64,000 nt of DNA from an uncultured Nitrospiraceae bacterium (lineage in GTDB: Bacteria; Nitrospirota; Thermodesulfovibrionia; UBA6902). The stretch covers positions 48 to 64,047 of the forward strand of contig CAYMUX010000003.1 of assembly GCA_964393845.1 (NCBI GenBank), given 5' to 3'. The notes under the pieces were generated by a model. It saw nothing but the letters and a program-made list of their open reading frames with translations, had not been told where the DNA came from and searched no databases. The position numbers were made by a program, and so were the translations under genes. Positions 1-30,610 of the stretch are shown here, one piece after another; the first letter of the stretch is position 1, and every line of letters begins with the position of its first letter.

Positions 1-2754
1 AGCACGGGGCAATCAACAACGAGCGGAAACTCAGCAGTGCCGACCTATGCAAGTCCTATCTGGGATACTCCGGCAAGCGCTGTCTGCGGAACATGTCATA
101 AGGTGACAGAGGTCTCGGGATTAACCTCCGGCAGTCATGCAGCGCATCTCGGTACAACAGGGGTAAACGGCTGCGGGGACTGTCATACAGGAGCTGCAAA
201 CGATGCATCATCATATAATTCAGCAAACCATGTGAATGCTTCAATAAATGTTTCAAATACATATACGGCAGGCGGGGCGCCCGGAAACGGATACGGCACA
301 TGTTCAACCGCCTCCTGTCATGACAACGGGACAGGCAGTCTCGCGGTCACACCGGCATGGGGTTCTTCACCGGCAAACTGTTCAGAATGTCACGCTGCAG
401 TGCCTGGCACGGGCAGTCACCAGAAGCATGTAGTAACAACGCAATACAGCAAGGCGTTATGCGGCAATTGTCATGATGGAGCAGTACAGGGGACAACAGC
501 GTCGGCGCAGCATCTTGATACAAATGTAGACGTATATGATGTAACAGCAGGCGACCTTGGATATCCGCAGGATAAAGCCAAGGGCTCTGCTTACACATCA
601 TGTACAACAGCATATTGCCACAGCACGGGACAATCCACAACAAACGGAAATTCAGCAACGCCGGCTTATGCATCGCCGACATGGGGCAATGCGTCAAGCG
701 CAGCATGCGGAACATGTCATAAAGTAACCGAGGCATCAGGACTGACATCCGGCAGCCATGCAGCGCATCTTGGGGCAACCGGAGTCAACGGCTGCGGCGA
801 TTGTCATACCGGAGCAGCGAATGACGCTTCATCATATAACTCATCAAACCACGTGAACGCTTCAATAAATGTTTCAAATTCCTATACTGCAGGCGGGACG
901 CCGGGCAACGGATACGGTACTTGTTCCGCAGCATCATGTCATGATGATGGAACGGGCAGTCTGAGCGTAACTCCTGAATGGGGGACAAGCGTAACGGATT
1001 GTACAGAATGCCACGCGGAGATACCTGCCACAGGCAGCCACCAGAAACACGTGGTGACTACAAGCTACAATAAAGCCGTATGCGGAGACTGTCATGACAA
1101 TGCAGTACAGGGCGCCACAACGCCGGCACAGCATCTTGACGGGAACCTTGATGTATACGATACAGCAGCCGGAGACCTCGGATATCCGCAGAATGTGGCA
1201 AAGGGCGGAGCGCCTTATGACACCTGTTCAACAGCATACTGTCATAGCACGGGACAATCAACAACAAACGGCAATTCATCAACGCCTACATACGCGACAG
1301 TAACATGGGGCGGTTCGGCTGCATGCGGTACATGTCATAAAGTGACTGAAACATCGGGATTAACCTCCGGCAGTCATGCAGCGCATCTTGGAACAATGGG
1401 TGTAAACGGCTGCGGAGACTGCCACACAGGGGCTGCAAATGATGCTTCATCATATAATTCATCAAACCACGTGAACGCTTCAATAAATGTTTCAAATTCC
1501 TATACTGCAGGCGGGACGCCGGGCAACGGATACGGTACTTGTTCTGCAGCATCATGTCATGGAGCTGGAGCGCCACAATGGGGTGGAACATTGACATCAT
1601 GCGGAGACTGTCATCTTGGAACGGGCGATGTGGATGATTTTACCTTTAGCAATGGAACTCTCGCTATAATAGACAACGCACAATGGAGTTGGTCCGGTCA
1701 TGGTAAGACAACAAGCATTTATGATGTCTCGGGTAATTCTGCAGCAAACCTGCCCGGCGCTGCTAATGGCGGCGACCCATGCCGGTATTGTCATAGCTCC
1801 CCGGTAACTCATAATACAGTTACTAATCCATTCCGTCTGGCAAATAATAATGCCTTTGGAAACGGATGGAATGATACTTGTCTTGTTTGCCACAAAACAG
1901 GCTCAACAGGTTATGACCCTGATAGTGCTGGTGTTATGACGAGCAAAAATGCAGCAAAGAAGATAGACAAATATCATTATGGAGCAAAACACGGCGTTTC
2001 AAATGACGGCGGCTCACTCTGCTGGGATTGCCATGACCCGCATGGGGACAGGACATCAGGCTCAGGCAATATCTTTATGACTCACTCAAACGTTACAAAA
2101 GACAAGACCGATGTGTATGGAACCCCTGCTTCAACAGGTTCTCCTGCATTTACCGCAAACAGCACAGGCACAGATTATGCCAAATCTTCAGCACCGTTTA
2201 ATGGTGTATGTAATGTCTGTCATACTACAACAGCTCACTATACTTCAACATCAGGTGATGGACATAACAGCAGTTCAAAATGTGTGCAATGCCATACACA
2301 TAGCGGTGACACCACGGTTGACGGCGAGGCATTTAAAATAGGCAGATGTGACTCCTGTCATGGATATCCGCCTGCGATCGGAGACGGAAAAACATACATG
2401 ACATCTGAGCAGGAGGGCAAGGGCGTTCATACGAAGCACCTGAACCATCTGCTTGCGCTTTCCGGCTACACGCTTGACCCTGCAACAGATCAGTTTGGAA
2501 ATAACGCAAAATTCAACGCAACATGCGGCGTCTGTCATACGAATAATTCTGCAAACCACTCGACTTCAGCGACACTGCCGAACACGCTGAGGACCATAAC
2601 AATTCCTGTGAGCTATCAGTTCGGGCCGAGCGCACCTGCGTACAACGGCGTGCAGGGTACGTCATCTACTGTAAATCCAAAGACCTGCTCGAACGTGAGC
2701 TGTCACTTCCAAGTGACTCCTTACTGGCAGAATCCTGCCACGGCGGGGAATTAG
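1..2754 (+). CDS. Giant secreted multiheme c-type cytochrome, 5'-partial (the reading frame is open from window position 1; the ORF track starts it at a GTG at 37). About 205-aa modules are tandemly repeated and at least 24 heme-binding motifs are visible.
   Basis: Translation shows repeated CGTCH, CGDCH, CSECH, CGNCH, CRYCH, CLVCH, CWDCH, CNVCH, CVQCH, CDSCH and CGVCH motifs, plus CX4CH variants (CSTASCH, CTTAYCH, CSNVSCH) as seen in cytochrome c3. Bases 1-36 translate in frame to STGQSTTSGNSAVPT, which matches the internal repeat, so the gene continues upstream of the window. Confidence 0.85.
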   Translation, partial: STGQSTTSGNSAVPTYASPIWDTPASAVCGTCHKVTEVSGLTSGSHAAHLGTTGVNGCGDCHTGAANDASSYNSANHVNASINVSNTYTAGGAPGNGYGTCSTASCHDNGTGSLAVTPAWGSSPANCSECHAAVPGTGSHQKHVVTTQYSKALCGNCHDGAVQGTTASAQHLDTNVDVYDVTAGDLGYPQDKAKGSAYTSCTTAYCHSTGQSTTNGNSATPAYASPTWGNASSAACGTCHKVTEASGLTSGSHAAHLGATGVNGCGDCHTGAANDASSYNSSNHVNASINVSNSYTAGGTPGNGYGTCSAASCHDDGTGSLSVTPEWGTSVTDCTECHAEIPATGSHQKHVVTTSYNKAVCGDCHDNAVQGATTPAQHLDGNLDVYDTAAGDLGYPQNVAKGGAPYDTCSTAYCHSTGQSTTNGNSSTPTYATVTWGGSAACGTCHKVTETSGLTSGSHAAHLGTMGVNGCGDCHTGAANDASSYNSSNHVNASINVSNSYTAGGTPGNGYGTCSAASCHGAGAPQWGGTLTSCGDCHLGTGDVDDFTFSNGTLAIIDNAQWSWSGHGKTTSIYDVSGNSAANLPGAANGGDPCRYCHSSPVTHNTVTNPFRLANNNAFGNGWNDTCLVCHKTGSTGYDPDSAGVMTSKNAAKKIDKYHYGAKHGVSNDGGSLCWDCHDPHGDRTSGSGNIFMTHSNVTKDKTDVYGTPASTGSPAFTANSTGTDYAKSSAPFNGVCNVCHTTTAHYTSTSGDGHNSSSKCVQCHTHSGDTTVDGEAFKIGRCDSCHGYPPAIGDGKTYMTSEQEGKGVHTKHLNHLLALSGYTLDPATDQFGNNAKFNATCGVCHTNNSANHSTSATLPNTLRTITIPVSYQFGPSAPAYNGVQGTSSTVNPKTCSNVSCHFQVTPYWQNPATAGN
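95..1560 (+). repeat. Nucleotide-level tandem repeats of about 611-618 bp inside the cytochrome gene (two full copies and a partial third), each encoding a roughly 205-aa six-heme module.
   Basis: Near-identical strings tgcggaacatgtcataa(g/a)gt at about 95, 706 and 1324; the protein repeats TSGSHAAHLG...CGDCHTGAANDASSYNS...AYCHSTGQSTTNGNS. Confidence 0.8.
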
Positions 2755-2765
2755 GAGGTGGCGAA

Positions 2766-5700
2766 ATGAAGATATACCGTAAATGGAATAAAAAAATGAT
2801 GACAAAATCCAGGGATGAGGATATAAAGAATAGTATGCTAGAAAATTTTGGAAAGAGTAACAGCGTTGTGAAGATGGCTTTTATGGCAGTTCTTGCTCTA
2901 ATTATGGTTTTAGGTGCAATCGGTGGGGCTGAGGCGGCGATTACAACGGTCCCGGGCAATGCATGGTCCCAAATCTATACTAATACGAATGCATTCCCCG
3001 GAACGATTGCGTACACAGTGAATGCTGGTAGTAATACCAATCGTTTGCTGGTTGTTGCTGTTTCTTCAAGTATTGACGCAGCAGGTGCCAAAACCTGCTC
3101 TGTAACGTATGGCGGCCAGTCTATGACTCAGGTGACGGCTGATGGAGGCAGTACGCAAGCTCATACGTATCTTTTTAGACTGAGTGAAGCAGGTCTGGAT
3201 GCAGCAGCTAATACTAACCTAATCTTTACGTGGGGTGGCGCAGGTTCAGCGTCTGTCAACAACGTTTTTGCTACTGTTTATGATGGGGTAGACCAGTCTG
3301 CAAATCCTATCGGGAGTTCTGTGAGTGGCACAGGCACAACATCAGTCGCCTTACCCTCGAATCTAACTATCGCAGCAGGCGAACAGGCTGTCGAAGTGGT
3401 AAATATGAGCAGGACCGGTGGAACAACATATCGTACCATTACAACGCCTGCCACAAATTGGACTTCTGTACTTGGACCTTTATCGACTAACGATGGAACT
3501 GTATATAATTCCAGCTATATTCTGACTGACGCTACTGCAGGAACAACGAATGCTAACCACACTATAAGTAGTGCTACAGCATCTATTTATGCTATGTCCG
3601 CTATGAGCATAAAGGCTTCCCAGGCTACGACAGCCGGGACGGCAACTGCTGTGGCGGCAAGCGGCACTACGATCAATGTGAGCATGCCCTACACTGATGA
3701 CGGAAACGCCAATAACACATATACAGTGGATTACAAACTAAGTTTATCCGGCACATGGACTAACTGGGTGACGAATGCAGCGCATACCACAAGCCCATAC
3801 ACAACGACAATAACCGGGCTTTCTGCCGGTACCAGTTATGATGTAAGAGTAACTTATAATGACACTGATGGTGTCAACGGCAGTGCGACGCAGACGATTA
3901 GCAATATATTTACATGGAACACCCTGACTGTCGGGGACGCAACTAACCCGGCAAACAAGACAGTATACAGGAGTGAAGCTGACAAGGCCGTATCCGCATT
4001 CACCCTATCGGTGGATGCTGGGACAGCGACAGTATCGCAGATAGTGGTAACCGGCACAGCCTCTGCCGGGTCGTCACAGACAGAGACATCAGCAGCAAAG
4101 ATATATCAGGACAACAATGGAGACCGTGAATGGGATGCAGGAGATACACTAATAGCGTCTACGACGTTTGCGACAAACACAGCTACGTTCTCCGGGCTGA
4201 GCATATCTGTGACCACAACGACAGTCAACTATATAATTGCCTATGACATATCAGCAACAGCAACCAGCGGGCGCACACTGCAGGCGCAGGTTTCAGGCAT
4301 CACGTCGACTGCCAATACAAACACTGATAATGATACTAATGATGCAACGCTGACAATCGGGACACAGACCCTGACTGCGGGCGACGGCACTGATCCGGCA
4401 GCCAAGAATGTTTACAGGACAGATACTAATAAAGCCCTTGACACATTCACGCTTTCGCTGAATGCCGGAAATACTACAGTGACGCAGATTGTCGTGACCA
4501 GCACGACATCTTTAGGTTCTGGACAGACAGAGACATCAGCAGTGAAAATCTGGCAGGACACGGGTACGACTGCTAACGAATGGGATGCAGGAGATACACT
4601 GATAGCGTCTACGACATTCGCGACAAACACAGCCACATTCTCAGGTCTGAGCATACCTGTGACAACAGCAACGGACACCTATATTGTTACAGTAGACATT
4701 TCGGCAACTGCCACAGCTACAAGAACAATTACAGCGCAGTTGTCCGGCATAAGCTCGTCTGCACAGACAAACACGGACAACGATACAGGCGGCGCAACGC
4801 TGACGATCACCAGCCAGACACTGACTGTCGGGGACGCAACCAACCCGACAAACAAGACAGTATACAGGAGTGAAGCCGACAAGGCCATATCCGCATTCAC
4901 CCTATCGGTGGATGCAGGGACAGCAACAGTATCGCAGATTGTGGTGACCGGCACAGCCTCTGCCGGGTCGTCACAGACAGAGACATCAGCAGCAAAGATA
5001 TATCAGGACAACAATGGAGACCGTGAATGGGATGCAGGAGATACACTAATAGCGTCTACGACGTTTGCGACAAACACAGCTACGTTCTCCGGGCTGAGCA
5101 TATCTGTGACCACAACGACAGTCAACTATATAATTGCCTATGACATATCAGCAACAGCAACCAGCGGGCGCACACTGCAGGCGCAGGTTTCAGGCATCAC
5201 GTCGACTGCCAATACAAACACTGATAGTGATAATAATGATGCAACGCTGACAATCGGGACACAGACACTGACTGTCGGCAATGGCACAAATCCAGCCAAT
5301 GCCAATGCACCCAGGAGCTCGACGAACAATGCACTGGATGGCTTTACACTATCTTTGAATGGCGGCTCAGGGACAGTCTCTACCCTGACTGTTACCGGAA
5401 GCGCTAACTTTACTGCAACCAATATTCCTACCAATGGCGTTAAAATATATCGTGACGCCGGTACGATAGGGACGCTGGACGGAACTGATACGTTGATCTC
5501 AAGCGGATCTACTGCTATAGCAGGCAATGCTACAACAGTAACGTTGGCCAGTGCGGAGACAGTGACAACTACATCTGCCAACTATCTCGTTACAGTTGAT
5601 ATCACTGCGGGCGCAACTCTTTCACAGACCTTTACCGGCAACATAAGTGCTGCTACAGGATCCGGCATTGGAACGCCGGTTGACAATGACACAACCTCGG

Positions 5701-7994
5701 CAACACTGACTATTACTGCTGCGCAGACACTAACTATTGGCAATGGCACAAATCCAGCCAGCGCCAATGCGCTCAGGAGCTCGACGAACAATGCACTGGA
5801 CGGCTTTACGCTATCTTTGAATACTGGCTCAGGGACAGTCTCGACCCTGACCGTTACCGGAAGCGCTAACTTTAATGCAACTAATATTCCTACAAACGGC
5901 GTTAAAATATATCGTGACGCCGGTACGATAGGGACGCTGGACGGAACTGATACGTTGATCTCAAGCGGATCTACTGCTATAGCAGGCAATGCTACAACAG
6001 TAACGTTGGCCAGTGCGGAGACAGTGACAACTACATCTGCCAACTATCTCGTTACAGTTGATATCACTGCGGGCGCAACTCTTTCACAGACCTTTACCGG
6101 CAACATAAGTGCTGCTACAGGATCCGGCATTGGAACGCCGGTTGACAATGACACAACCTCGGCAACACTGACTATTATTGCATCGCTCTCAACCATCACC
6201 TCCTGCGCAGGCTGTCATGACTATCCGCCTCTTGACGGAACAAGAAGCGGTGTAACAGGAGCTTTTGTAGGCGACCATCAGGTTCACACCTATATCTGCT
6301 CGACCTGCCATGTAATACCGGCAACTGAGACGAGCGCAGACTTTGCACACAGAAATGCAAATATACAGATGAAGGCAGGGGCTACAGCAATAGACAATGG
6401 CTATTACGATAAGAACGGCAACAGCGCATATAATGCCGGTGTTGATGATACATTTGCCCAGACTAATTCACCAGTCACAGCAAGCTGCAGGACTGTGTCC
6501 TGCCACGGCGGGGTAACTACACCACAATGGGGTGTTGGGACAACAACATGCTCTGACTGCCACGCAGGGGTTGTTAAGAGCGTAAGAAGGACAACAACAG
6601 GGGCATCCAGCGATTTTAGCAAGGAAGGAACTGGAAGCACGCATGTCGCCGCAGGAATCAACACTCCTCTTAAGGCAACCTGTCAGGCATGTCATGGAAG
6701 CCATCTTGGCTTAGGGTTAGACCCGAATGCGTCTTTGCTGAATGCCGATTCCGGCGCAGCAATAACCTTTGATGGCACTGCAGCGAGCACAGAGGTATTC
6801 TGCATAAGCTGTCATGACTCTAATGGAGCTACAAGACTCGGAACGCCGACCGACCCGTTTGGCACAGACGGAGCAAATGTGGTCAATATCGGATGGACAA
6901 TAGGTACAGTTGCACACAGCCAGGCCTCAAATGTTAACAAGTGCATGGCCTGCCACGGAGATGCTTCGGGAACCGGAACCACGCTTTCCCCGACGATTAA
7001 CGCCCACGGATCATCCTCGAAGAAGCTGACGCGGTACAGTTATACGGCGGGAGCGGAACAGACCTTCTGTTACAACTGTCATGGGACAACAGTAGCAAAT
7101 GGGGCACAGGACAGCATTCAGCCCATGTTTGCGAAGACTTATCCTCATGCCGTTGCAGACTGCGCTGCCTGTCATAATAAGCATATAGCGACTATCGCCA
7201 GTCCGCTCAGCGGTATGAGCGGTGCAGATCCTTCAACACCTGGCGCTGGTGCTCAGCCGACCTTCTCTACTGTAACGGTGACAGACCCTGACCATCAGTA
7301 TAAGGTCTGTTTTAACTGCCATTCGAACTTTAGCGCAGGAGCTACAAAGAAGGTTGATATTGATTTTAATACTGCAAACGACAGCTTCCACTGGGTGGAG
7401 AAGGACAAATACTCATATACAGTAAATACCGGTACAAGCAAAGGCATCTGGACAATCGCCACGTTCAATCTGAATGCAGTGCCTACCCAGGGCACCAAAA
7501 AATATGTTGAGGTCATGATGCCGAGGTCCGGGTTCACGTATAATGATGCAAATCTCAGGACACTGGCCCTGAGATGCTCTGACTGTCATGGTCCCAACGC
7601 GGCAGACGGCGGAGTGGCTGTGCCTGAAGGCCCTCATGGATCAAGCGTAGCCAAAATTCTTAAAGTGCCTGCAGGAAGTCCATATACTACATGGAACGCA
7701 ACTACCAGTTCTCTGACAGGAAATACATGGTGCCTCAACTGTCATAACCCCAGTTTTACCAATTCAGGTTTCAGGCCTTCGGACGGGCATCTCTACGGCG
7801 GATCAGGAAAGCATCAGAGAGCGTGTCAGTATTGCCACATTCCGATTCCGCATGGTTCAGGCTCAGAAGGCACAGGTGTCGCCAATCAGAGAAGGCATCT
7901 TTTAAAGACAACGACGTTTACAGAAGGTATAGACAGCGAAACATCCGGAAGCCAGTCTCAGCACGGTTCATGGGTAATCCCAGGCTGTACATAA
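2766..7994 (+). CDS. Giant (1742 aa) secreted or cell-surface multiheme cytochrome. It has an N-terminal signal/anchor, an FN3-like domain, five Thr-rich repeat domains of about 150 aa, and a C-terminal module of about 600 aa with 13 CxxCH/CX4CH motifs.
   Basis: Strong Shine-Dalgarno ggagg 5 nt upstream. Hydrophobic segment MAFMAVLALIMVLGAIGGAEA. Heme motifs CAGCH, CSTCH, CRTVSCH, CSDCH, CQACH, CISCH, CMACH, CYNCH, CAACH, CFNCH, CSDCH, CLNCH, CQYCH. Five tandem ~150-aa Thr/Ser/Ala-rich domains. Confidence 0.85.
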   Translation: MKIYRKWNKKMMTKSRDEDIKNSMLENFGKSNSVVKMAFMAVLALIMVLGAIGGAEAAITTVPGNAWSQIYTNTNAFPGTIAYTVNAGSNTNRLLVVAVSSSIDAAGAKTCSVTYGGQSMTQVTADGGSTQAHTYLFRLSEAGLDAAANTNLIFTWGGAGSASVNNVFATVYDGVDQSANPIGSSVSGTGTTSVALPSNLTIAAGEQAVEVVNMSRTGGTTYRTITTPATNWTSVLGPLSTNDGTVYNSSYILTDATAGTTNANHTISSATASIYAMSAMSIKASQATTAGTATAVAASGTTINVSMPYTDDGNANNTYTVDYKLSLSGTWTNWVTNAAHTTSPYTTTITGLSAGTSYDVRVTYNDTDGVNGSATQTISNIFTWNTLTVGDATNPANKTVYRSEADKAVSAFTLSVDAGTATVSQIVVTGTASAGSSQTETSAAKIYQDNNGDREWDAGDTLIASTTFATNTATFSGLSISVTTTTVNYIIAYDISATATSGRTLQAQVSGITSTANTNTDNDTNDATLTIGTQTLTAGDGTDPAAKNVYRTDTNKALDTFTLSLNAGNTTVTQIVVTSTTSLGSGQTETSAVKIWQDTGTTANEWDAGDTLIASTTFATNTATFSGLSIPVTTATDTYIVTVDISATATATRTITAQLSGISSSAQTNTDNDTGGATLTITSQTLTVGDATNPTNKTVYRSEADKAISAFTLSVDAGTATVSQIVVTGTASAGSSQTETSAAKIYQDNNGDREWDAGDTLIASTTFATNTATFSGLSISVTTTTVNYIIAYDISATATSGRTLQAQVSGITSTANTNTDSDNNDATLTIGTQTLTVGNGTNPANANAPRSSTNNALDGFTLSLNGGSGTVSTLTVTGSANFTATNIPTNGVKIYRDAGTIGTLDGTDTLISSGSTAIAGNATTVTLASAETVTTTSANYLVTVDITAGATLSQTFTGNISAATGSGIGTPVDNDTTSATLTITAAQTLTIGNGTNPASANALRSSTNNALDGFTLSLNTGSGTVSTLTVTGSANFNATNIPTNGVKIYRDAGTIGTLDGTDTLISSGSTAIAGNATTVTLASAETVTTTSANYLVTVDITAGATLSQTFTGNISAATGSGIGTPVDNDTTSATLTIIASLSTITSCAGCHDYPPLDGTRSGVTGAFVGDHQVHTYICSTCHVIPATETSADFAHRNANIQMKAGATAIDNGYYDKNGNSAYNAGVDDTFAQTNSPVTASCRTVSCHGGVTTPQWGVGTTTCSDCHAGVVKSVRRTTTGASSDFSKEGTGSTHVAAGINTPLKATCQACHGSHLGLGLDPNASLLNADSGAAITFDGTAASTEVFCISCHDSNGATRLGTPTDPFGTDGANVVNIGWTIGTVAHSQASNVNKCMACHGDASGTGTTLSPTINAHGSSSKKLTRYSYTAGAEQTFCYNCHGTTVANGAQDSIQPMFAKTYPHAVADCAACHNKHIATIASPLSGMSGADPSTPGAGAQPTFSTVTVTDPDHQYKVCFNCHSNFSAGATKKVDIDFNTANDSFHWVEKDKYSYTVNTGTSKGIWTIATFNLNAVPTQGTKKYVEVMMPRSGFTYNDANLRTLALRCSDCHGPNAADGGVAVPEGPHGSSVAKILKVPAGSPYTTWNATTSSLTGNTWCLNCHNPSFTNSGFRPSDGHLYGGSGKHQRACQYCHIPIPHGSGSEGTGVANQRRHLLKTTTFTEGIDSETSGSQSQHGSWVIPGCT
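3901..6180 (+). repeat. Five tandem intragenic repeats of about 450-460 bp, two classes (A1, A2, A3 at about 3921, 4370, 4819; B1, B2 at about 5268, 5727). A1/A3 and B1/B2 are nearly identical at the DNA level.
   Basis: acc/acactgactgtcggggacgcaac(t/c)aacccg recurs at about 3921 and 4819; acactgactgtcggcaatggcacaaatccagcc at about 5268 and 5727. The antisense ORFs 5138..5581 and 5582..6043 are near-identical because of this repeat. Confidence 0.85.
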
Positions 7995-8028
7995 AACCTG
8001 ATATCTATATTTGCAATAATATTCAAAA

Positions 8029-8058
8029 AGGGCTGGTGTAAAACCAGCCTTTTTTTAT
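8029..8058 (+). terminator. Rho-independent terminator after the cytochrome gene.
   Basis: Hairpin ggctggt-gtaaaa-ccagcc followed by a T7 run (8031-8057). Confidence 0.7.
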
Positions 8059-8081: not shown

Positions 8082-9485
8082 ATGAACCAGGAACAAAAAA
8101 CACGTTTTGACAGACTGGTGAGTTTTCTCGGAAGCATGAGACTTTCCTTTGTCCTTATCGTCATACTCGGCCTGCTTGTTGCCCAGCGGGCTGTAATAGC
8201 GCAGAAATTCGTTTACCTTGAGGAAGTACCGTGGTTTTTACGGATTCTTGGTTCGCTCGGGATTCAATCGGCGGAGGACCTCTGGATACCCTTTCTTGCT
8301 GTGCTCGCTGTTTTTGTGCTGAACCTCGGGTTTTCAAGCATAAGGATGGCAAGGAGGATAAGAGCCAGAAAAGAGGGCATCAGGGGATATCGCACATATG
8401 AAGCATTACAGGCTTTTATAAACAATGCGGAGTTTTTCTGCCCCGAAGATTCGGAACCCCTGATTAGAAGGTTTTTCAAGAGAAAGGGCTTTTATATTCA
8501 GAGCGACAATCTCGGGAATGAGACACGCATTCATGCCGTGAAGCATAGGGCCGGTTACTGGGGGGTTTTTTCCTTTCATCTGACGTTTCTGATAATACTC
8601 ATGGGAGTTCTCCTCAGTGTCTTTACGCGATACGCCGGATATTTTGAAATTTCACCGGGAGAAAACTTTATTGAGAGGTATGAGAACTACAGGGAGGTTA
8701 CAGAAAAGCCGGCTCTGTTCAGCGGAAACAGCGGATTGAAAATAAGGCTTGAGGAAATTGACCTTTCATACTGGAGACAGGGTGAAGTAAAACAAAGGGC
8801 AAGCATTGTGAGCGTCTTTGATGCTGAAGGAAGGTTTATGGGTAAAAGACGGATAGAAGTGAACAACCCGGTAAAAATAGAGGGAATGAACATATACCAG
8901 GGCTCAAGGAACGGCTACATCACAGTTCTTGATATTACAGACTCTGCCAGCACAACAGCAGAGGGTACAGCGAGGTTTCAGCTCCCGAAAAAACCGGGTG
9001 AACAAATGAAGAGCGCCATAACACTGCCGGGTATCGGCATCTCACTTCTGTTGGAGCTCTTTACCGAAAAACTGGGCGAGATAGAGGGACTTGAACAACT
9101 GGGCGCTATGCATATGGCGACCCTGCTGAAGGTAACGAGCAAGGAGGACCTCCGCAGTAACTTCAGGGGAGTAGCATTTAAGGGCGGGAGTCTGTCTTTT
9201 GAAGGGATTACCTTGAGGTTTTTGAGCCTGAGGCCGTATACTTCTTTTGTGGTAATCAGGGACTATGGTGTTCCAGTTATTTTTTCAGGCTTTGTCGTCA
9301 TGCTTATCGGCCTTATCATCACGTTTTTCTGGGTGCCTGAAAACTATTGGGCAATAATCAGGAAAAGTGAAAGCGGAGAAGTGGTCATTATGGGAGCGAG
9401 CAGTGATAAATTCAGGGAATCCTTTAGGGAGCGCTTTCATGCTGAAATTGAGGAACTCAAGGCAGAGGTGAAGGCACATGGCTGA
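8082..9485 (+). CDS. ccsB: Cytochrome c biogenesis protein ResB/Ccs1 (system II, CcsB).
   Basis: 467 aa with an N-terminal TM segment, HxxxGYWG-like AGYWGVFSFHL segment, large soluble domain and a C-terminal TM segment; immediately upstream of ccsA. Confidence 0.8.
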   Translation: MNQEQKTRFDRLVSFLGSMRLSFVLIVILGLLVAQRAVIAQKFVYLEEVPWFLRILGSLGIQSAEDLWIPFLAVLAVFVLNLGFSSIRMARRIRARKEGIRGYRTYEALQAFINNAEFFCPEDSEPLIRRFFKRKGFYIQSDNLGNETRIHAVKHRAGYWGVFSFHLTFLIILMGVLLSVFTRYAGYFEISPGENFIERYENYREVTEKPALFSGNSGLKIRLEEIDLSYWRQGEVKQRASIVSVFDAEGRFMGKRRIEVNNPVKIEGMNIYQGSRNGYITVLDITDSASTTAEGTARFQLPKKPGEQMKSAITLPGIGISLLLELFTEKLGEIEGLEQLGAMHMATLLKVTSKEDLRSNFRGVAFKGGSLSFEGITLRFLSLRPYTSFVVIRDYGVPVIFSGFVVMLIGLIITFFWVPENYWAIIRKSESGEVVIMGASSDKFRESFRERFHAEIEELKAEVKAHG

Positions 9486-10299
9486 AATAATCCTTTTCTG
9501 GATTTCTGTCGGCGCTTATGTCTTCAGTGCAGTAGCGTATATTGCAGGTTTAACATTTAAAAAGGACGGTTTCAGGAAAGCAGGCGCTCTTTTGGCGGCT
9601 TGCGGACTTCTTTTTCATACAGTTGCAATTGTGTTAAGATGGCTGCACGCGGGGCACGGCCCTTACGTCAGCACCTTTGAGATCCTTTCATCAACAGCAT
9701 GGGTGTCTGTCCTGTTTTTTCTTCTTCTTCAGTGGAAGTTCAGGAACTTTGTAAACCTCGGAGCTGCTGTAATGCCGCTTTCTTTTATCATGATGGGTTT
9801 TGCATTCATGGGTTCACAAGAGGTAAGGGCGCTGCCTCCCACTCTGAGGAGTTCATGGCTTGTGGTTCACGTTATCTTTGCCAAGCTTACTATTTCCTCT
9901 CTCCTTATCGCTGTCGCAATGTCGGTATTCTATCTCATGAAAAAAGGCAGGGATACACACAGCGGTATACTGGCAAAGCTGCCTTCTCCGGCAATGCTGG
10001 ATGATTACAGCTACAGGCTCGTTGCCTTTGGCTTTATCACATTGACCATAATGATAATCACGGGCTCTATATGGGCAAACAACTCATGGGGCAGTTACTG
10101 GTCATGGGACACCACCCAGACATGGTCGCTTGTCCTCTGGCTGGTCTACGGTGTATACCTTCACGGCAGGATCACCTTCCGGTGGAATGGTATGGTCTCT
10201 GCATGGTATATAATCCTGGCATTTATCTTTTCAGTAGCGACATTTTTTATTATTCCGTATTTCATCAAGGACATACATTCAGCTTACATGACAGGTTAA
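9478..10299 (+). CDS. ccsA: Cytochrome c-type biogenesis protein CcsA/ResC (heme exporter/lyase subunit).
   Basis: Polytopic membrane protein with the WWD domain WANNSWGSYWSWDTTQTW and conserved His residues; 8-nt overlap with resB. Confidence 0.85.
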   Translation: MAEIILFWISVGAYVFSAVAYIAGLTFKKDGFRKAGALLAACGLLFHTVAIVLRWLHAGHGPYVSTFEILSSTAWVSVLFFLLLQWKFRNFVNLGAAVMPLSFIMMGFAFMGSQEVRALPPTLRSSWLVVHVIFAKLTISSLLIAVAMSVFYLMKKGRDTHSGILAKLPSPAMLDDYSYRLVAFGFITLTIMIITGSIWANNSWGSYWSWDTTQTWSLVLWLVYGVYLHGRITFRWNGMVSAWYIILAFIFSVATFFIIPYFIKDIHSAYMTG

Positions 10300-10304
10300 A
10301 GCAA

Positions 10305-10790
10305 ATGCACGGAATGAATATGATAAAACCGGTAATCCTTATTCTTATCATAAGTATCTCAGGATTTTATGGATGCAGAAAGGGAAGAGATGGCAGTGTG
10401 ATTCACATGAAGGAATTGATAAAACAGTATAATAATCTTCTTTCAGAGGCGTATATCACCATGGATTTGACAGAGCTGAATAAAATACTTACAGAAAATC
10501 ACGCTGTAAGGCTTGAAACCCGGCTGACGAATGTCAGGAAATCTCAAAGGCGGATGGAATCTGAATTGAAAAAGATAGAGTTTAAGGATATTGTATTCCC
10601 GGATGACAAATCAGTTATTGTTAGTACGAAAGAAGTGTGGGATATCCGCCATATTGATTTAAAAACAAAAAAAATGATCAAAGAGCATAAGGGCTATGTA
10701 TATGATCTTCGCTATGAACTCGCTAAAAAAGGGGATACATGGCTGATTGACAACGTGGTTGTCATTGATGAAAGGGAACCATTATTGTAG
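10305..10790 (+). CDS. Uncharacterized lipoprotein co-transcribed with ccsBA (paralog of 12986..13516).
   Basis: The start was refined to the ATG at 10305, 6 nt after the ccsA stop; signal peptide with a Cys (ISGFYGC). Shares GYIT...LKF.D.K...W.DLL.GDTWL.D..V motifs with the lipoprotein downstream of the second ccsA. Confidence 0.6.
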   Translation: MHGMNMIKPVILILIISISGFYGCRKGRDGSVIHMKELIKQYNNLLSEAYITMDLTELNKILTENHAVRLETRLTNVRKSQRRMESELKKIEFKDIVFPDDKSVIVSTKEVWDIRHIDLKTKKMIKEHKGYVYDLRYELAKKGDTWLIDNVVVIDEREPLL

Positions 10791-11497: not shown

Positions 11498-12964
11498 ATG
11501 AAAAAAATAAAAAGAATACTCCTTATAACCCCTCCATATCATTCCGGAGTAGTTGAGTCGGCAGGGGTGTGGCTGAACGTTGCATTTGTGTATATAGCCG
11601 GAAGCCTGCGGGCCGCCGGATACGAGCCTGTCATATACGATGCTATGAGCTACTGGGACGGATATGGCGACATAGAGAAAAGGATAAGGGATGAGAGGCC
11701 TGATGTTGTAGCTGTCACGGCATTTACAGCCGGGATAGTGGATGCATTAAAGGTACTGAAACTCGCTAAAGATATTAACGCTGAGATTGTAACGGTCATA
11801 GGGAATGTCCATCCCACATTCTGCTTTGAGGAGATACTCAGGGAACATCATGCGTATATGGATTACATTGTACGCGGCGAAGGCGAGGAGACACTGGTAG
11901 AGCTTCTTGACTGCATTAATTCAGGGGGGAATATTGATAAGGTCAGGTCAATATCTTTTTATAAAGAAGGCAATCTCATTGTAACACCCTCAAGACCTGC
12001 AATAAATGATTTAGACAGTCTGCCGACGGCATGGGACCTGATAGACTGGCCCATCTATACATATAAGCCGATGGAAGGTTCAATACTGGCGATAGTAAGC
12101 TCCTCACGTGGATGCAACCAGCAGTGCAGTTTCTGCTCTCAGCAGCTTTTCTGGGAAAGGAAGTGGAGGGGCCGGAGCGCGGAGAACTTTGTTGCCGAGC
12201 TTGAATACCTGAGGGACACCTATGGCGTAAACGTAGTCATGCTGTCCGATGAAACGCCGACATTAAACAGGGAACGGTGGGAGAATATCCTGGACCTGCT
12301 GATAGAGAGGGATGTCGGTACAAAGCTGCTGATGGAGACAAGGGTTGACGATATAATCAGGGACGAAGACATCATGTGGAAATACAAAAAGGCCCTGATT
12401 GACCATGTCTATGTGGGTGTTGAGGCAACGACACAGGAGACGCTGGACATATTCAAGAAAGACATAAAAGTGGAGCAGTCCAAGAAGGCGCTTGATCTTT
12501 TAAACGCGCAGGACATTGTAACGGAGACGTCTTTTGTGCTGGGAATGCCTGATGACACAAAAGAGAGCATGGAGAAGACCATTCAGCTTGCGAGGTATTA
12601 CAATCCGGACCTTGCGTTTTTCCTTGCTATAGCGCCGTGGCCGTATTCGGAACTGTATCCGTATTTAAAGGACCATGTAGAGATAAAGGACTACAGCAAG
12701 TACAACCTTGTGGAGCCTGTGGTAAAACCAAAGGGGATGACGCTAAAAGAGGTGTCTGAGATACTGGGCAGGGCCTCGAGGGAATTCTATATGTATAAGA
12801 TAAACAACCTTGAATTGTTAACAGACAGGAAGAAAGAATTCATGATTAAGGTTGTCCATATAATAGCCACCAGTTCATATCTCGCGGAGACTATGAAAGG
12901 CACGAGCATGCCGGAAGACGTAAAAAAGCTGCTTGAAAAAATAAAAATGGATGCAATAGCCTAA
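11498..12964 (+). CDS. B12-binding domain radical SAM protein.
   Basis: N-terminal Rossmann-like B12-binding region followed by the CNQQCSFCS (CX3CX2C) radical SAM cluster motif. Confidence 0.75.
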   Translation: MKKIKRILLITPPYHSGVVESAGVWLNVAFVYIAGSLRAAGYEPVIYDAMSYWDGYGDIEKRIRDERPDVVAVTAFTAGIVDALKVLKLAKDINAEIVTVIGNVHPTFCFEEILREHHAYMDYIVRGEGEETLVELLDCINSGGNIDKVRSISFYKEGNLIVTPSRPAINDLDSLPTAWDLIDWPIYTYKPMEGSILAIVSSSRGCNQQCSFCSQQLFWERKWRGRSAENFVAELEYLRDTYGVNVVMLSDETPTLNRERWENILDLLIERDVGTKLLMETRVDDIIRDEDIMWKYKKALIDHVYVGVEATTQETLDIFKKDIKVEQSKKALDLLNAQDIVTETSFVLGMPDDTKESMEKTIQLARYYNPDLAFFLAIAPWPYSELYPYLKDHVEIKDYSKYNLVEPVVKPKGMTLKEVSEILGRASREFYMYKINNLELLTDRKKEFMIKVVHIIATSSYLAETMKGTSMPEDVKKLLEKIKMDAIA

Positions 12965-12985: not shown

Positions 12986-13516
12986 TTAAGAAAGCGGCTT
13001 GTAACCTTCGGGGTTCTTTTCCTTTGTCTGCTTTACATCTATATCATCAACAAGCCATTTGCCGGACAGCTTTATCAGACGGTAGGTAAGCTTATAATCT
13101 ACAGAGTTTTCATATACCTGTTTGCCTGAATCCGTATTTATGTATTTATAGTCCCACTTTTCCTCTGTCCCGGCCTCAGCATTGTCCGGCGAAAGAATTT
13201 TTACATCCGTGAATTTCAGTTCATTCAGTTTCATATCCATCTTTACCTTGCCCTCTCCCAAAGCCGACATGTGGTAATAAGCCTTATTGGCACGCTTCTC
13301 TGTCGCCGCCTCAAGAAGAAGACTCATGTTTTGTGTAATATAGCCTTTTGCAAGCAATGAATCATAAAGGATTACAGTGTTTTTAATCCTTGTTTCTTCA
13401 TCAAACGCGCCTGTTTCTTTGGGCTTCTCCGAAGACGTGCCGACCGTTTTTTTGTCTTGTTCACAGGCTGTCACAGACAAGACAGCAATTAAAATAATCA
13501 CCAGCATTCTGATCAT
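12986..13516 (-). CDS. Uncharacterized lipoprotein, paralog of 10305..10790, terminal gene of the second ccs operon.
   Basis: Signal peptide MIRMLVIILIAVLSVTAC. Sequence similarity to the lipoprotein downstream of the first ccsA. Confidence 0.6.
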   Translation of the reverse strand: MIRMLVIILIAVLSVTACEQDKKTVGTSSEKPKETGAFDEETRIKNTVILYDSLLAKGYITQNMSLLLEAATEKRANKAYYHMSALGEGKVKMDMKLNELKFTDVKILSPDNAEAGTEEKWDYKYINTDSGKQVYENSVDYKLTYRLIKLSGKWLVDDIDVKQTKEKNPEGYKPLS

Positions 13517-13540: not shown

Positions 13541-13885
13541 TTAATGAAAGGCCATTGTATACTGCCAGTAAGTTCCGCTGCCGAAAATTACAAGAAGTAA
13601 GATATGCTTTATTATAAGCATCTTTCTTCTCGTCCGCTCTGCATCCGCTCCGTACACGTCCCCTACATAGGCATATGTGAAGGTCCTTCCGGCGCCTGCA
13701 AGAAACACTATCCCTATACAGATAAGGCCGATATAAAAAAATTCCTTCATAAGTCCGCTCAGTACTATCTTCAGGCTGACCTCGGGGACCCTGTCAAGCC
13801 AGTAAACCGCCAGAACAGTCGCCGCCCATATACCGGCGGCAAAGTCATGAATAAAACCGATTATGATTGTCAGCGCCCTTTTCAT
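13541..13885 (-). CDS. Small (115 aa) three-TM membrane protein translationally coupled to ccsA.
   Basis: The start was refined to the internal ATG at 13885-13883, which forms an ATGA overlap with the ccsA stop (13884-13882). The longer ORF 13541..14059 would overlap ccsA by 178 nt. Confidence 0.5.
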   Translation of the reverse strand: MKRALTIIIGFIHDFAAGIWAATVLAVYWLDRVPEVSLKIVLSGLMKEFFYIGLICIGIVFLAGAGRTFTYAYVGDVYGADAERTRRKMLIIKHILLLVIFGSGTYWQYTMAFH

Positions 13886-29838: not shown

Positions 29839-30120
29839 AATAACTACCCCCTTTCTACTCATCAAAAAAAAGCCTGTTTCCTTAAAAGAGAAACAGGCTT
29901 TTTTCCATAGGTAAACTCTGAGTAAGCACTGTTTCTTCGACGGCCCGGCTATCCCTTTATAGGACCCGTGGCTTTGTGCCCCCTGGTTACCCAGGGTTTA
30001 CCTTTATCGGAAACACCAATTTATGTAACCTTAATTTATGATAAATAAAGATAGGGGAGAGAAGCGGTGATTACAATCACGATATGATAAAATTCAGCCA
30101 TATCCTTTTATTTAATGAGC

Positions 30121-30523: not shown

Positions 30524-30610
30524 TTTGTATTTAACTAACAAAGCAGAAAATAATATATAAATATTATGAATAACAAAATGATAAAACAAATATCGAAAGG
30601 AGAAAATTCA

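What the first reader, a model, noticed from the sequence alone, without database searches (positions are those of the whole stretch)
1..7994. Tandem giant multiheme cytochromes, at least 37 heme motifs in 8 kb, built from recently duplicated modules
The first gene is open from window position 1 to 2754 and shows at least 24 CxxCH/CX4CH motifs in ~205-aa modules repeated at the DNA level. The next gene encodes a 1742-aa protein with a signal/anchor, an FN3-like domain and five ~150-aa Thr-rich repeat domains that form a long stalk, ending in a 13-heme C-terminal module. This architecture fits an outer-surface electron conduit for extracellular electron transfer or mineral/partner interaction, and the near-identical modules suggest recent expansion. 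CX4CH motifs (CSTASCH, CTTAYCH, CRTVSCH) occur alongside canonical CxxCH.
Basis: partly seen in the sequence, partly recalled or inferred. Interest (0 to 1): 0.8.

Follow-up and report, generated by a model that had tools for sequence, protein, structure and literature searches.

The report
Paired giant multiheme cytochrome genes
An uncultured Nitrospirota bacterium carries two adjacent giant genes for proteins with at least 37 heme-binding sites; this gene pair recurs in related bacteria, sits next to its own heme-attachment genes, and is a plausible but unproven route for moving electrons out of the cell.

Summary
Gene 1 (1-2754, cut by the contig end) has 18 CxxCH and 6 Cx4CH motifs. Gene 2 (2766-7994, 1742 aa) has 12 and 1. 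Shuffled sequences give fewer than 0.3.

Gene 1 belongs to the large, uncharacterised "CxxxxCH/CxxCH domain" family (TIGR01904). Its heme modules are 76-86% identical in DNA, so they are not near-identical.

Gene 2 is a mosaic:
- a signal peptide;
- an unannotated 235-aa domain;
- an FN3-like module;
- five beta-sandwich repeats (model pLDDT 91, adhesin-, cohesin- and CBM-like);
- a 13-heme domain.

Only the heme-free repeats are near-identical (96-98%). They contain two exact 280-nt blocks, so their copy number needs long reads.

The pairing of a Cx4CH cytochrome with a stalked C-terminal-heme cytochrome recurs in three other loci.

The last 310 aa of gene 2 form a rare pentaheme module that ends in an invariant Cys-Thr. 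In several genomes this module is followed by a distinct ResB/CcsA pair and a B12 radical-SAM enzyme.

The host is a Thermodesulfovibrionia-like Nitrospirota. Surface location and a role in extracellular electron transfer are plausible from the domain company these proteins keep, but they are not shown. I rate it a new variant of a known kind, of moderate interest.

The parts
1..2754 (+). Gene 1: 3' 917 codons of a CxxxxCH/CxxCH-domain (TIGR01904) multiheme cytochrome, cut at the contig end; 24 heme motifs
   Evidence: sequence and motif count. (Pfam Cytochrome_C7 81.9 bits; GSu_C4xC__C2xCH 43.2 bits). (TIGR01904 148.6 bits, 7 stretches). (424 homologs, best 71-78% identical). (about 400 aa missing).
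1..1560 (+). Gene 1 heme modules: M1 1-621, M2 622-1239, M3 (half module) 1240-1560. Each full module carries the motif order CxxCH, CxxCH, Cx4CH, CxxCH, CxxCH, Cx4CH.
   Evidence: DNA identity is 76-86%. Synonymous codon differences exceed non-synonymous ones between M1 and M2 (35 against 14) but not between M2 and M3 (24 against 26).
2755..2765 (+). Shine-Dalgarno sequence (GGAGGTG) overlapping the gene 1 stop, a few nt before the gene 2 ATG; the 11-nt gap suggests translational coupling
   Evidence: sequence read directly.
2766..7994 (+). Gene 2: 1742-aa mosaic cytochrome (stop codon TAA)
   Evidence: An exact copy exists on one NCBI contig of 64,143 bp.
2766..2936 (+). Long leader with Sec-type signal peptide (…MAFMAVLALIMVLGAIGGAEA|AITT); no lipobox Cys
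   Evidence: read from the sequence; the cleavage site is inferred.
2931..3635 (+). N-terminal domain of about 235 aa with no known family; shared with giant non-cytochrome surface-type proteins
   Evidence: No Pfam match. No PDB match with a profile. Found in 14 proteins; 57% identical to P0005 and 63-67% to P0021.
3672..3908 (+). FN3-like module (aa 303-381), 65-82% identical to modules in several other phyla
3921..6182 (+). Five heme-free, Thr-rich (23% Thr) beta-sandwich repeats of 147-154 aa (R1-R5)
6183..7055 (+). First part of the heme domain (aa 1140-1430): 8 heme motifs including the single Cx4CH; related to TIGR01904-type cytochromes
   Evidence: P0065 E 8.5e-25; P0153 E 4e-33. (41% identical to P0006). 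(weak similarity to gene 1).
7056..7991 (+). C-terminal pentaheme module ('hemeC', aa 1431-1742) ending in an invariant …WVIPGCT-COOH
   Evidence: 61% mean column identity across Nitrospirota, Geobacter and Desulfobulbales-like loci. (only 120 hits among 1.84 billion representatives, essentially all at or within about 60 residues of the C-terminus). (the closest members end in CT).
8025..8056 (+). Terminator-like hairpin (GGGCUGGU-GUAAA-ACCAGCC plus U7) between gene 2 and resB
   Evidence: sequence. (-18.6 kcal/mol, z -4.85). One search lists the same stem on the minus strand.
8082..9485 (+). ResB-like System II cytochrome c biogenesis protein (set 1)
   Evidence: PF05140, E 1.6e-34. Orthologs 46-49% identical follow hemeC cytochromes in L001, L004, L008 and L009.
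9478..10299 (+). CcsA/CcsB heme-handling subunit (set 1), with a variant WWD motif WGSYWSWDTTQTW
   Evidence: (TIGR03144 185.5 bits against a cut-off of 187.6). (61% identical to L004). (40% identical to the in-window paralog). (alignment).
10305..10790 (+). Small NTF2-like lipoprotein accompanying set 1 (MNMIKPVILILIISISGFYGC…); the exact start is uncertain
   Evidence: Homolog after ccsA in G. argillaceus, 40% identical.
11498..12964 (+). B12-binding radical SAM enzyme, BchE-like
   Evidence: (TIGR02026 400 bits, below its 481 cut-off). Orthologs 59-60% identical lie directly after ccsA in L004, L008 and L009. A 52% identical copy lies beside a TIGR01904 cytochrome in L006.
12986..13516 (-). 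Second NTF2-like lipoprotein (MIRMLVIILIAVLSVTAC…), a paralog of the first
13882..14712 (-). Second CcsA (set 2) with the canonical WWD motif WGRYWGWDPIETW
14712..16096 (-). Second ResB (set 2), split into two overlapping ORFs (15623-16096 and 14712-15635)

Best explanation
Shown. The region holds a conserved two-gene cytochrome module in an uncultured Thermodesulfovibrionia-like Nitrospirota bacterium, followed by its own heme-attachment genes.

- Gene 1 is a long CxxxxCH/CxxCH-domain (TIGR01904) cytochrome. It has about one heme per 34 residues in its modules. From its homologs I estimate about 34 hemes when complete. It has enough spare His for bis-His ligation.
- Gene 2 is translationally coupled to gene 1. 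It is a Sec-exported mosaic of a 235-aa beta-rich domain of unknown function, an FN3-like module, five beta-sandwich repeats, and a 13-heme domain.
- The 13-heme domain combines a TIGR01904-like 8-heme part with a rare, highly conserved C-terminal pentaheme module.

Inferred mechanism. Both apoproteins are exported unfolded. They receive heme in the periplasm from the System II (ResB/CcsA) machinery encoded immediately downstream. Together they then act as an electron conduit beyond the inner membrane. Gene 1 would serve as a molecular wire tens of nanometres long. Gene 2 would serve as a heme head held on, or anchored by, a non-conducting adhesin-like stalk of about 25-30 nm, most probably at or outside the cell surface. 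The partner could be a mineral, an electrode-like surface or another cell.
For: Motifs and family:
- Motif counts are far above chance.
- Gene 1 scores 148.6 bits on TIGR01904 over 7 stretches and has 424 homologs, many annotated as that family.
- Gene 1 has 28 non-motif His for 24 hemes. The gene 2 heme domain has 17 non-motif His plus 6 Met for 13 hemes.

Gene arrangement:
- A Shine-Dalgarno sequence overlaps the gene 1 stop.
- A Cx4CH-type cytochrome lies 11-97 nt upstream of a giant protein with beta modules and C-terminal hemes in four loci: the window, L007, L010 and L011.
- ResB and CcsA lie directly downstream. The order cytochrome-ResB-CcsA is conserved in G. argillaceus and in three metagenomic loci.
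- Geobacter genomes show the same linkage of ResB/ResC pairs to multiheme cytochrome genes (PMC2700814).

Stalk and location:
- The repeat model is confident and all-beta. Its nearest folds are surface-adhesin, cohesin, CBM and Calx-beta domains.
- The three non-heme modules recur in giant non-cytochrome surface-type proteins.
- A related 27-heme cluster in Desulfuromonadia is modelled as a wire about 350 Å long and is predicted to be extracellular (PMC11492766).

Host: LigA is 80-83% identical to Nitrospirae MAG proteins.
Against: - There is no experimental or sequence evidence for crossing the outer membrane. The 64-kb window has no porin-cytochrome, beta-barrel or type II secretion genes. 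The G. argillaceus ortholog has none nearby either.
- Stand-alone versions of the C-terminal module are small proteins with ordinary signal peptides.
- A terminator-like hairpin separates gene 2 from resB, so co-transcription is uncertain.
- The heme-domain model is poor (pLDDT 48.8), so no heme chain geometry could be checked.
- No member of TIGR01904 has a demonstrated function.
- The wire-plus-stalk picture and all lengths are inference.
Confidence: 0.55

Rival explanations
1. The proteins stay inside the cell envelope. They would be periplasm-spanning wires or electron stores (capacitors) linking inner-membrane quinol oxidation to periplasmic or outer-membrane acceptors, and the beta modules would bind peptidoglycan or envelope components rather than external surfaces.
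For: - No outer-membrane translocation components lie in the window or next to the orthologs.
- The small hemeC proteins have plain signal peptides and sit beside mreBCD-pbp2-rodA.
- PMC11492766 notes many long periplasmic wire cytochromes in Desulfuromonadia whose function is unknown.
Against: - The N-domain, the FN3-like module and the repeat co-occur with SLH, sortase-linked, beta-helix and LamG modules of secreted giant proteins in monoderm and diderm phyla.
- A stalk of about 25-30 nm plus a wire of about 35-45 nm would exceed the roughly 17 nm periplasmic width quoted in PMC11492766. These lengths are inference.
Confidence: 0.22
2. The C-terminal pentaheme module is a catalytic or specially matured redox centre rather than a passive relay. 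Its invariant penultimate Cys would act as a heme ligand, a nucleophile or a modification site. The linked variant ResB/CcsA pair and the BchE-like B12 radical SAM enzyme would be needed to build it. Gene 2 would then be a tethered terminal reductase or oxidase fed by the wire.
For: - Conservation is unusually tight outside the heme motifs (61% mean column identity across three lineages; invariant NDSFHWVEKDK, LRCSDCHG, PxGPHGS, NQRxHLL and the C-terminal …CT).
- The module is rare and lies at or within about 60 residues of the C-terminus in essentially all hits, in proteins of 423-3378 aa.
- The cassette cytochrome-ResB-CcsA-rSAM is conserved in L004/L008, in L009 and in the window.
- CcsA proteins of this cassette share a Glu-to-Gln change in the WWD motif that the housekeeping-type paralogs lack.
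- Precedent: a catalytic Cys/Sec beside a heme in MccSep, found in the same taxa (PMC13510729).
Against: - There is no detectable homology to MccSep or to any solved enzyme. The NrfA matches at E about 0.05 are not significant.
- Six invariant non-motif His would allow ordinary bis-His ligation of all five hemes.
- G. argillaceus lacks the rSAM within 10 kb, and L002 lacks resB downstream.
- ResB/ResC pairs beside cytochrome genes are common in Geobacter without any known special chemistry (PMC2700814).
Confidence: 0.18
3. The architecture is partly an assembly artefact: repeats were collapsed, duplicated or mis-joined by a short-read assembler.
For: - The contig ends inside the repeat-rich gene 1.
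- R1/R3 and R4/R5 each contain a perfectly identical block of exactly 280 nt, with flanking mismatches 281 nt apart in both pairs. That is longer than usual k-mers and suspiciously equal. It equals 2k-1 for k = 141; this link is my inference.
Against: - The heme-bearing modules are diverged (76-86%, longest exact repeat 86 nt) and so are readily assembled. The count of 37 motifs does not depend on the near-identical repeats.
- Both ORFs are intact and in frame over 8 kb.
- Independent homologs (P0005, P0006, P0064-P0066) show the same modular design, including near-identical adjacent repeats.
Confidence: 0.05

Closest known systems
CxxxxCH/CxxCH-domain c-type cytochromes (TIGR01904 / PF09698). 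The family was first defined in Geobacter sulfurreducens. PMC11492766 models GSU2884 (OmcA), OmcG, OmcH and a 27-heme Desulfuromonadia cluster as long wires; I did not test here whether those proteins belong to TIGR01904.
   Same: Gene 1 has alternating Cx4CH and CxxCH motifs in repeated modules, 7 domain matches at 148.6 bits, and 50-78% identity to annotated members. The first 8 hemes of gene 2 are related to the same family.
   Different: The host is Nitrospirota rather than Desulfuromonadia. Gene 1 is truncated. No family member has a proven function, so membership does not assign a role.
GSU1996-type polymers of c7 triheme domains ('nanowire' dodecaheme)
   Same: Built from duplicated small multiheme units. 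The Pfam Cytochrome_C7 model matches four stretches of gene 1.
   Different: The TIGR04257 nanowire_3heme model scores 27.5 bits against a cut-off of 40. There is no PDB sequence match even at E 10. The Cx4CH motif and the 206-aa hexaheme module are different.
MtrC/OmcA/MtrF outer-surface decaheme cytochromes of Shewanella
   Same: The proposed role as terminal surface reductases is similar. Pfam MtrC/MtrF domain II/IV matches aa 1384-1473 of gene 2 (47.8 bits).
   Different: Only half of one pentaheme domain matches. There is no lipoprotein signal, no staggered-cross four-domain layout, no adjacent MtrAB-type porin pair, and no PDB sequence match.
Large multiheme cytochromes fused to non-heme surface domains, such as the ANME-2 and Methanoperedens S-layer-domain cytochromes (from my own knowledge: McGlynn et al. 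2015)
   Same: A heme domain is combined with a long non-heme extracellular-type spacer in a single giant polypeptide. Such proteins are proposed to carry electrons across or beyond the envelope.
   Different: Those are archaeal proteins with unrelated spacer domains. This is an analogy only and was not tested here.
Dedicated System II heme lyases: Wolinella succinogenes NrfI and CcsA1 (own knowledge), and the four ResB/ResC pairs next to multiheme cytochrome genes in Geobacter (PMC2700814)
   Same: A paralogous ResB/CcsA pair lies directly after a particular cytochrome. It is conserved with that cytochrome across lineages and is distinct from a second, canonical pair in the same genome.
   Different: The Wolinella lyases serve non-standard motifs (CXXCK, CX15CH). 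The conserved C-terminal module here has only standard CxxCH motifs, and its stand-alone relatives have no Cx4CH. What a dedicated lyase would recognise is therefore unknown.
MccSep, the pentaheme selenoprotein polysulfide reductase of G. sulfurreducens (PMC13510729; PDB 9wt8)
   Same: Same taxa (Desulfobacterota and Thermodesulfovibrionia). Five hemes plus a single conserved Cys/Sec outside the heme motifs. A superficially similar local string (IPDGU against IPGC).
   Different: No detectable sequence similarity, although the structure is in the library that was searched. In MccSep the Sec lies in an internal Ig-like domain about 125 residues from the end. Here the Cys is the penultimate residue, and the stop codon is TAA.

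Membership tests
TIGR01904 / PF09698 CxxxxCH/CxxCH-domain c-type cytochrome (gene 1) | Repeated domain of about 73 aa holding a Cx4CH motif followed by a CxxCH motif, scoring above the curated cut-off | tested here: met
   NCBIfam 148.6 bits (cut-off 27), 7 stretches. Pfam GSu_C4xC__C2xCH 43.2 bits (cut-off 21.7), 4 stretches.
TIGR01904 / PF09698 CxxxxCH/CxxCH-domain c-type cytochrome (gene 1) | Close full-length homology to annotated family members | tested here: met
   424 hits. 71-78% identical to Nitrospiraceae MAG proteins and about 50% to Geotalea proteins named as this family.
TIGR01904 (gene 2 heme domain) | Domain score above the cut-off | tested here: not met
   26.8 bits against a cut-off of 27, one stretch (aa 1227-1274). 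It is related but not a clear member.
c-type cytochrome (both genes) | Export signal plus CxxCH-type heme attachment motifs with available axial ligands | tested here: met
   A signal peptide is present in gene 2 and in all full-length gene 1 homologs. There are 37 motifs, and non-motif His (plus Met) outnumber the hemes in each protein. Actual heme occupancy cannot be tested here.
MtrC/OmcA/MtrF outer-surface decaheme family | Two pentaheme domains (II, IV) alternating with two beta-barrel domains (I, III), a lipoprotein signal, and a usual partnership with MtrAB | tested here: not met
   Only profile positions 75-166 of 176 of one domain match. There is no lipobox, no PDB sequence match and no MtrAB-like neighbours.
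c7 triheme 'nanowire' polymers (TIGR04257, GSU1996 type) | c7-type triheme domain scoring above the cut-off | tested here: not met
   27.5 bits against a cut-off of 40. No PDB match at E up to 10.
MccSep multiheme selenoprotein family | Five-heme helical cap plus a C-terminal Ig-like domain carrying a conserved Sec/Cys, with detectable sequence homology | tested here: not met
   MccSep chains are in the library. Neither the gene 2 heme domain nor a profile of the C-terminal module retrieves them. The stop codon is TAA, with no downstream extension.
Fibronectin type III domain (gene 2 aa 303-381) | Pfam fn3-clan score above the gathering threshold | tested here: inconclusive
   FN3_DSCAM 23.5 bits (cut-off 39) and fn3 19.6 bits (cut-off 25). 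Homologous modules in other proteins carry precomputed PF00041/PF25059 hits. No structure was predicted for this segment.
System II cytochrome c biogenesis (ResB/CcsB + CcsA) | A ResB-family protein paired with a CcsA protein that carries the WWD motif and conserved His residues | tested here: met
   PF05140 E 1.6e-34 and PF01578 E 5.8e-38. TIGR03144 scores 185.5 bits, just under its 187.6 cut-off. A WWD motif and His-containing segments (GHGPY, VVHV, YLHGR) are visible in the CcsA alignment, and the motif's Glu is replaced by Gln; calling these the functional His residues is my reading.
BchE (anaerobic Mg-protoporphyrin monomethyl ester cyclase) | TIGR02026 equivalog score above the cut-off | tested here: not met
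   400.4 bits against a cut-off of 481. It is a B12-binding radical SAM enzyme close to BchE, but it cannot be assigned as BchE. The substrate is unknown.

The most novel reading that the evidence does not exclude
The last 310 residues of gene 2 define a rare cytochrome family: five CxxCH motifs plus an invariant Cys as the penultimate residue. It occurs either as a heptaheme protein of about 430 aa or as the C-terminal cap of proteins up to 3378 aa.

On this reading the family needs its own maturation cassette. That cassette would be a ResB/CcsA pair with a Glu-to-Gln WWD variant, an NTF2-like lipoprotein, and a BchE-like B12 radical SAM enzyme. It would build an unusual centre, such as a modified heme or a Cys-linked or Cys-ligated catalytic heme.

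Gene 2 would then be a surface-tethered enzyme fed by the gene 1 wire, rather than a simple conduit.
Probability: 0.15. Interest if true: 0.75.

Novelty: new variant of a known kind. Interest (0 to 1): 0.45.

Why it matters
Giant modular multiheme cytochromes are a leading candidate for how uncultured anaerobes exchange electrons with minerals and with partner cells. Almost none has been characterised.

This locus adds three testable points:
1. A wire-type Cx4CH cytochrome and a stalked, C-terminally hemed cytochrome form a recurring gene pair, so they probably work together.
2. The same adhesin-like beta modules are combined with at least three different C-terminal heme domains. This argues for a general design of a redox head on a spacer.
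3. One of those heads is a rare, tightly conserved module that travels with its own ResB/CcsA pair and a tetrapyrrole-type radical SAM enzyme. A cultured carrier exists (Geobacter argillaceus), so the long-open question of why Geobacter-like genomes keep several heme-attachment systems could be tested directly.

The module's presence in Thermodesulfovibrionia-like Nitrospirota also extends Geobacter-style cytochrome hardware to a sulfur-cycling lineage.

Tried and rejected
- **Cx4CH as the target of the adjacent heme lyase.** Rejected. The cassette is conserved with stand-alone heptaheme relatives that have no Cx4CH motif.
- **MccSep homology and selenocysteine read-through at the gene 2 end.** Rejected. 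There is no sequence match although MccSep is in the PDB copy. The stop is TAA and only 87 nt separate it from resB.
- **Sequence homology to solved cytochromes.** No significant PDB match for either gene or for one or two modules of gene 1, so no solved multiheme cytochrome in that library is a detectable sequence relative. Profiles of the N-domain and of the repeat also found nothing.
- **AlphaFold model of the 603-aa heme domain.** Mean pLDDT was 48.8, and Foldseek returned nothing. It was not used.
- **Joint model of N-domain, FN3 and repeat.** MAFFT misplaced the repeat fragments onto the N-domain (alignments A4 and A7). Only the R1-R2 pair was modelled, so the N-domain and FN3 folds remain unpredicted.
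- **Finding the window's own genome.** There was no self hit among GTDB representative genomes, and the exact protein has no encoding-contig record. Taxonomy therefore rests on LigA identities.
- **Metagenome scan for the C-terminal module.** It returned only two loci, one apparently the same population as L004.
- **Literature on a BchE-like radical SAM linked to cytochrome maturation.** Nothing relevant was found.
- **Porin or secretion partners.** None were found in the window or near the G. argillaceus ortholog.

Full report
**Observation**

Gene 1 is open from window position 1 to a TAG stop at 2752-2754. Gene 2 runs 2766-7994 and encodes 1742 aa.

Gene 1 has 18 CxxCH and 6 Cx4CH motifs, and all 48 of its cysteines lie in them. 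Gene 2 has 12 CxxCH and one Cx4CH, all within aa 1147-1691. Residue shuffles give means of 0.29 and 0.02 motifs. The density is therefore real.

Gene 1 has 28 non-motif His for 24 hemes. The gene 2 heme domain has 17 non-motif His plus 6 Met for 13 hemes, so bis-His ligation is feasible.

The window is almost a whole NCBI contig of 64,143 bp, and gene 1 is cut by the contig end. Full-length homologs are 1365-1551 aa, carry 33-43 motifs and have signal peptides. They align from about their residue 400, so roughly 400 aa are missing.

**Repeats**

Gene 1 holds 2.5 copies of a 206-207-aa hexaheme module with the motif order CxxCH, CxxCH, Cx4CH repeated twice. The copies are only 76-86% identical in DNA, and the longest exact repeat is 86 nt. 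They are old duplications and are easy to assemble.

The near-identical units are the heme-free repeats of gene 2. R1/R3 are 97.7% identical in DNA and R4/R5 95.6%. The other pairs are 61-72% identical.

Each near-identical pair contains a perfect block of exactly 280 nt, bounded by mismatches 281 nt apart. I cannot explain why the two lengths are equal. Gene conversion and an assembler effect are both possible; 281 equals 2k-1 for k = 141, which is my inference. The repeat copy number therefore needs long reads. The heme count does not depend on it.

**Host**

The LigA protein of the window is 80-83% identical to many Nitrospirae/Nitrospiraceae MAG proteins and 76% identical to Thermodesulfovibrionales proteins. 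The best gene 1 homologs also come from Nitrospiraceae MAGs.

**Gene 1**

Gene 1 scores 148.6 bits on NCBIfam TIGR01904 (CxxxxCH/CxxCH-domain c-type cytochrome) over seven stretches. It also matches Pfam GSu_C4xC__C2xCH and Cytochrome_C7. It has 424 homologs in the searched database.

It is a member of a known, large and functionally uncharacterised family. A survey of Desulfuromonadia cytochromes modelled a 27-heme cluster as a wire about 350 Å long and predicted it to be extracellular. It also modelled OmcA (GSU2884), OmcG and OmcH as long wires (PMC11492766). No solved structure is detectably related by sequence.

**Gene 2**

The ATG at 2766 follows a GGAGGTG Shine-Dalgarno sequence that overlaps the gene 1 stop. 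The protein consists of:
- **A long leader with a Sec-type signal peptide** and no lipobox.
- **A 235-aa domain (aa 56-290)** with no Pfam match and no PDB profile match. It recurs in 14 giant proteins, many of them not cytochromes.
- **An FN3-like module (aa 303-381).** Its Pfam scores are below threshold, yet it is 65-82% identical to modules in Chloroflexota, Verrucomicrobiota, Gammaproteobacteria, Geomobilimonas and Actinomycetota proteins.
- **Five repeats of 147-154 aa with 23% Thr**.
- **A 603-aa heme domain.**

This supports a spacer or stalk built from adhesin-like beads. It does not show what the stalk binds or where it sits.

**The heme domain is itself a mosaic**

Residues 1140-1430 carry 8 motifs, including the single Cx4CH, and are related to TIGR01904-type proteins.

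Residues 1431-1742 form a distinct pentaheme module. It is 45-62% identical to the C-termini of proteins in Geobacter argillaceus, Thermodesulfovibrionia, Thermodesulfobacteriota and Desulfurivibrio-like genomes. Mean column identity is 61%. Long invariant non-heme strings are present, and the end is an invariant …WVxxxCT-COOH.

An exhaustive HMMER scan of 1.84 billion representatives found only 120 relatives, 22 of them below E 1e-30. Essentially all matches lie at or within about 60 residues of a C-terminus, in proteins of 423-3378 aa. The closest relatives all end in Cys-Thr, and more distant ones keep a Cys within a few residues of the end.

The AlphaFold model of this domain was too poor to use. 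MccSep is a recently described pentaheme Sec/Cys enzyme from the same taxa. It is not detectably related, although it is in the library that was searched (PMC13510729).

**Context**

A strong hairpin followed by a U-run lies after gene 2. Downstream come:
- ResB (8082-9485) and CcsA (9478-10299);
- an NTF2-like lipoprotein;
- a BchE-like B12 radical SAM enzyme (11498-12964);
- on the other strand, a second lipoprotein, a second CcsA and a split second ResB.

The order cytochrome (with the C-terminal module), ResB, CcsA is conserved in G. argillaceus, where the lipoprotein gene follows. It is also conserved in L004/L008 and L009, where the radical SAM gene follows directly at 59-60% identity.

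CcsA proteins of this cassette are about 60% identical across phyla but only 40% identical to the in-window paralog. They share WGxYWSWDxxQTW, where the paralog and L006 have the WGRYWGWDPxETW form that I take as canonical from my own knowledge.

The stand-alone relatives have no Cx4CH, so the cassette is not a Cx4CH lyase.

Linkage of ResB/ResC pairs to particular multiheme cytochromes, and the idea that they are dedicated to them, was already noted for Geobacter. Its purpose was left open (PMC2700814).

**A recurring gene pair**

A Cx4CH-type cytochrome lies 11-97 nt upstream of a giant protein with beta modules and C-terminal hemes in four places:
- the window;
- L007, a Nitrospiraceae MAG, where the second gene has an FN3 module and 11 hemes;
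- L010, where a 1100-aa Cx4CH cytochrome precedes P0005, which shares the N-domain and five repeats;
- L011, where a 608-aa cytochrome precedes P0006, with ResB and CcsA nearby.

The C-terminal heme domains differ between these loci. They end in …GCT, …TPW or …GGxY. The beta-module scaffold is therefore combined with different redox heads.

**Interpretation**

I regard the identity of the parts as settled. The function is inferred.

The most likely reading (about 0.55) is an electron conduit beyond the inner membrane, in which a long heme wire works with a stalked heme head, probably at the cell surface. This rests on family precedent and on the extracellular company kept by the non-heme modules.

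The main rival is an envelope-internal role, and it cannot be excluded. No outer-membrane partner or secretion genes are present. The small relatives of the C-terminal module also look periplasmic.

A second reading is compatible with either location. In it the C-terminal module is a specially matured or catalytic centre. Its tight conservation and its private cassette make this worth testing.

An assembly artefact could change the number of heme-free repeats, but not the main finding.

**Verdict**

Gene 1 is a new member of a known family. Gene 2 and its cassette are a new variant of a known kind. Interest is moderate (0.45). It would rise if the cassette proves to build an unusual heme centre.

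Noticed in passing
window 29935-30011 (-), upstream of ORF 27487-29865 (-): A c-di-GMP-I-GGC riboswitch (RF03167, 64.8 bits, E 5e-13) sits just upstream of a 792-aa secreted protein with two fn3 domains and an Ig-like domain. This suggests second-messenger control of a surface protein.
   Followed up: no
window 3672-3908 (gene 2 aa 303-381): The FN3-like module of about 85 aa (…PYTDDGNANNTYTVDYKLS…WTNWVTNAAHT…SYDVRVTYND…) is 65-82% identical to modules in giant proteins of Chloroflexota, Verrucomicrobiota, Gammaproteobacteria, Geomobilimonas and Actinomycetota, with up to 9 copies per protein. That is unusually high cross-phylum conservation for an FN3-type module.
   Followed up: partly
window 4050-4329 = 4947-5226, and 5436-5715 = 5898-6177: Two unrelated repeat pairs each contain a perfectly identical block of exactly 280 nt, with flanking mismatches 281 nt apart. 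The equal length is unexplained; gene conversion and an assembler effect are both possible.
   Followed up: partly
window ~10305-10790 (+) and 12986-13516 (-): Each of the two System II (ResB/CcsA) sets is accompanied by a paralogous small NTF2-like lipoprotein. Homologs sit beside resB/ccsA in G. argillaceus (L001) and in a Nitrospiraceae MAG (L006). This may be an unrecognised accessory factor of cytochrome c maturation.
   Followed up: partly
window 11498-12964 (+); L004 13322-14791; L009 13178-14644; L006 6740-8665: A BchE-like B12-binding radical SAM enzyme (TIGR02026 400 bits, below its cut-off) recurs directly after the cytochrome-linked ccsA, or beside a TIGR01904 cytochrome, in non-phototrophs. 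The L006 copy carries an extra SRPBCC (Polyketide_cyc2) domain. Its substrate is unknown.
   Followed up: partly
window 14712-16096 (-): The second ResB is split into two ORFs that overlap by 13 nt (15623-16096 and 14712-15635). This could be a frameshift, a sequencing error or a natural split.
   Followed up: no
window 30566-31246, 32219-34282, 36696-38084: A PEP-CTERM protein lies near a 7TM-type histidine kinase. A 462-aa ORF at 36696-38084 starts like a response-regulator receiver domain; no family search was run on it. The set may be a PrsK/PrsR-like exosortase regulon, which would suggest a diderm that makes exopolysaccharide.
   Followed up: no
proteins P0006, P0007, P0014, P0015, P0017, P0022, P0036, P0062, P0305, P0315: Many giant cytochromes related to gene 2 share a conserved N-terminal leader (MGKVIKKKIxGMNLWAKVGLVxxLTLL…YQGWYKP) that gene 2 lacks. 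It may be a specialised export or anchoring signal.
   Followed up: no
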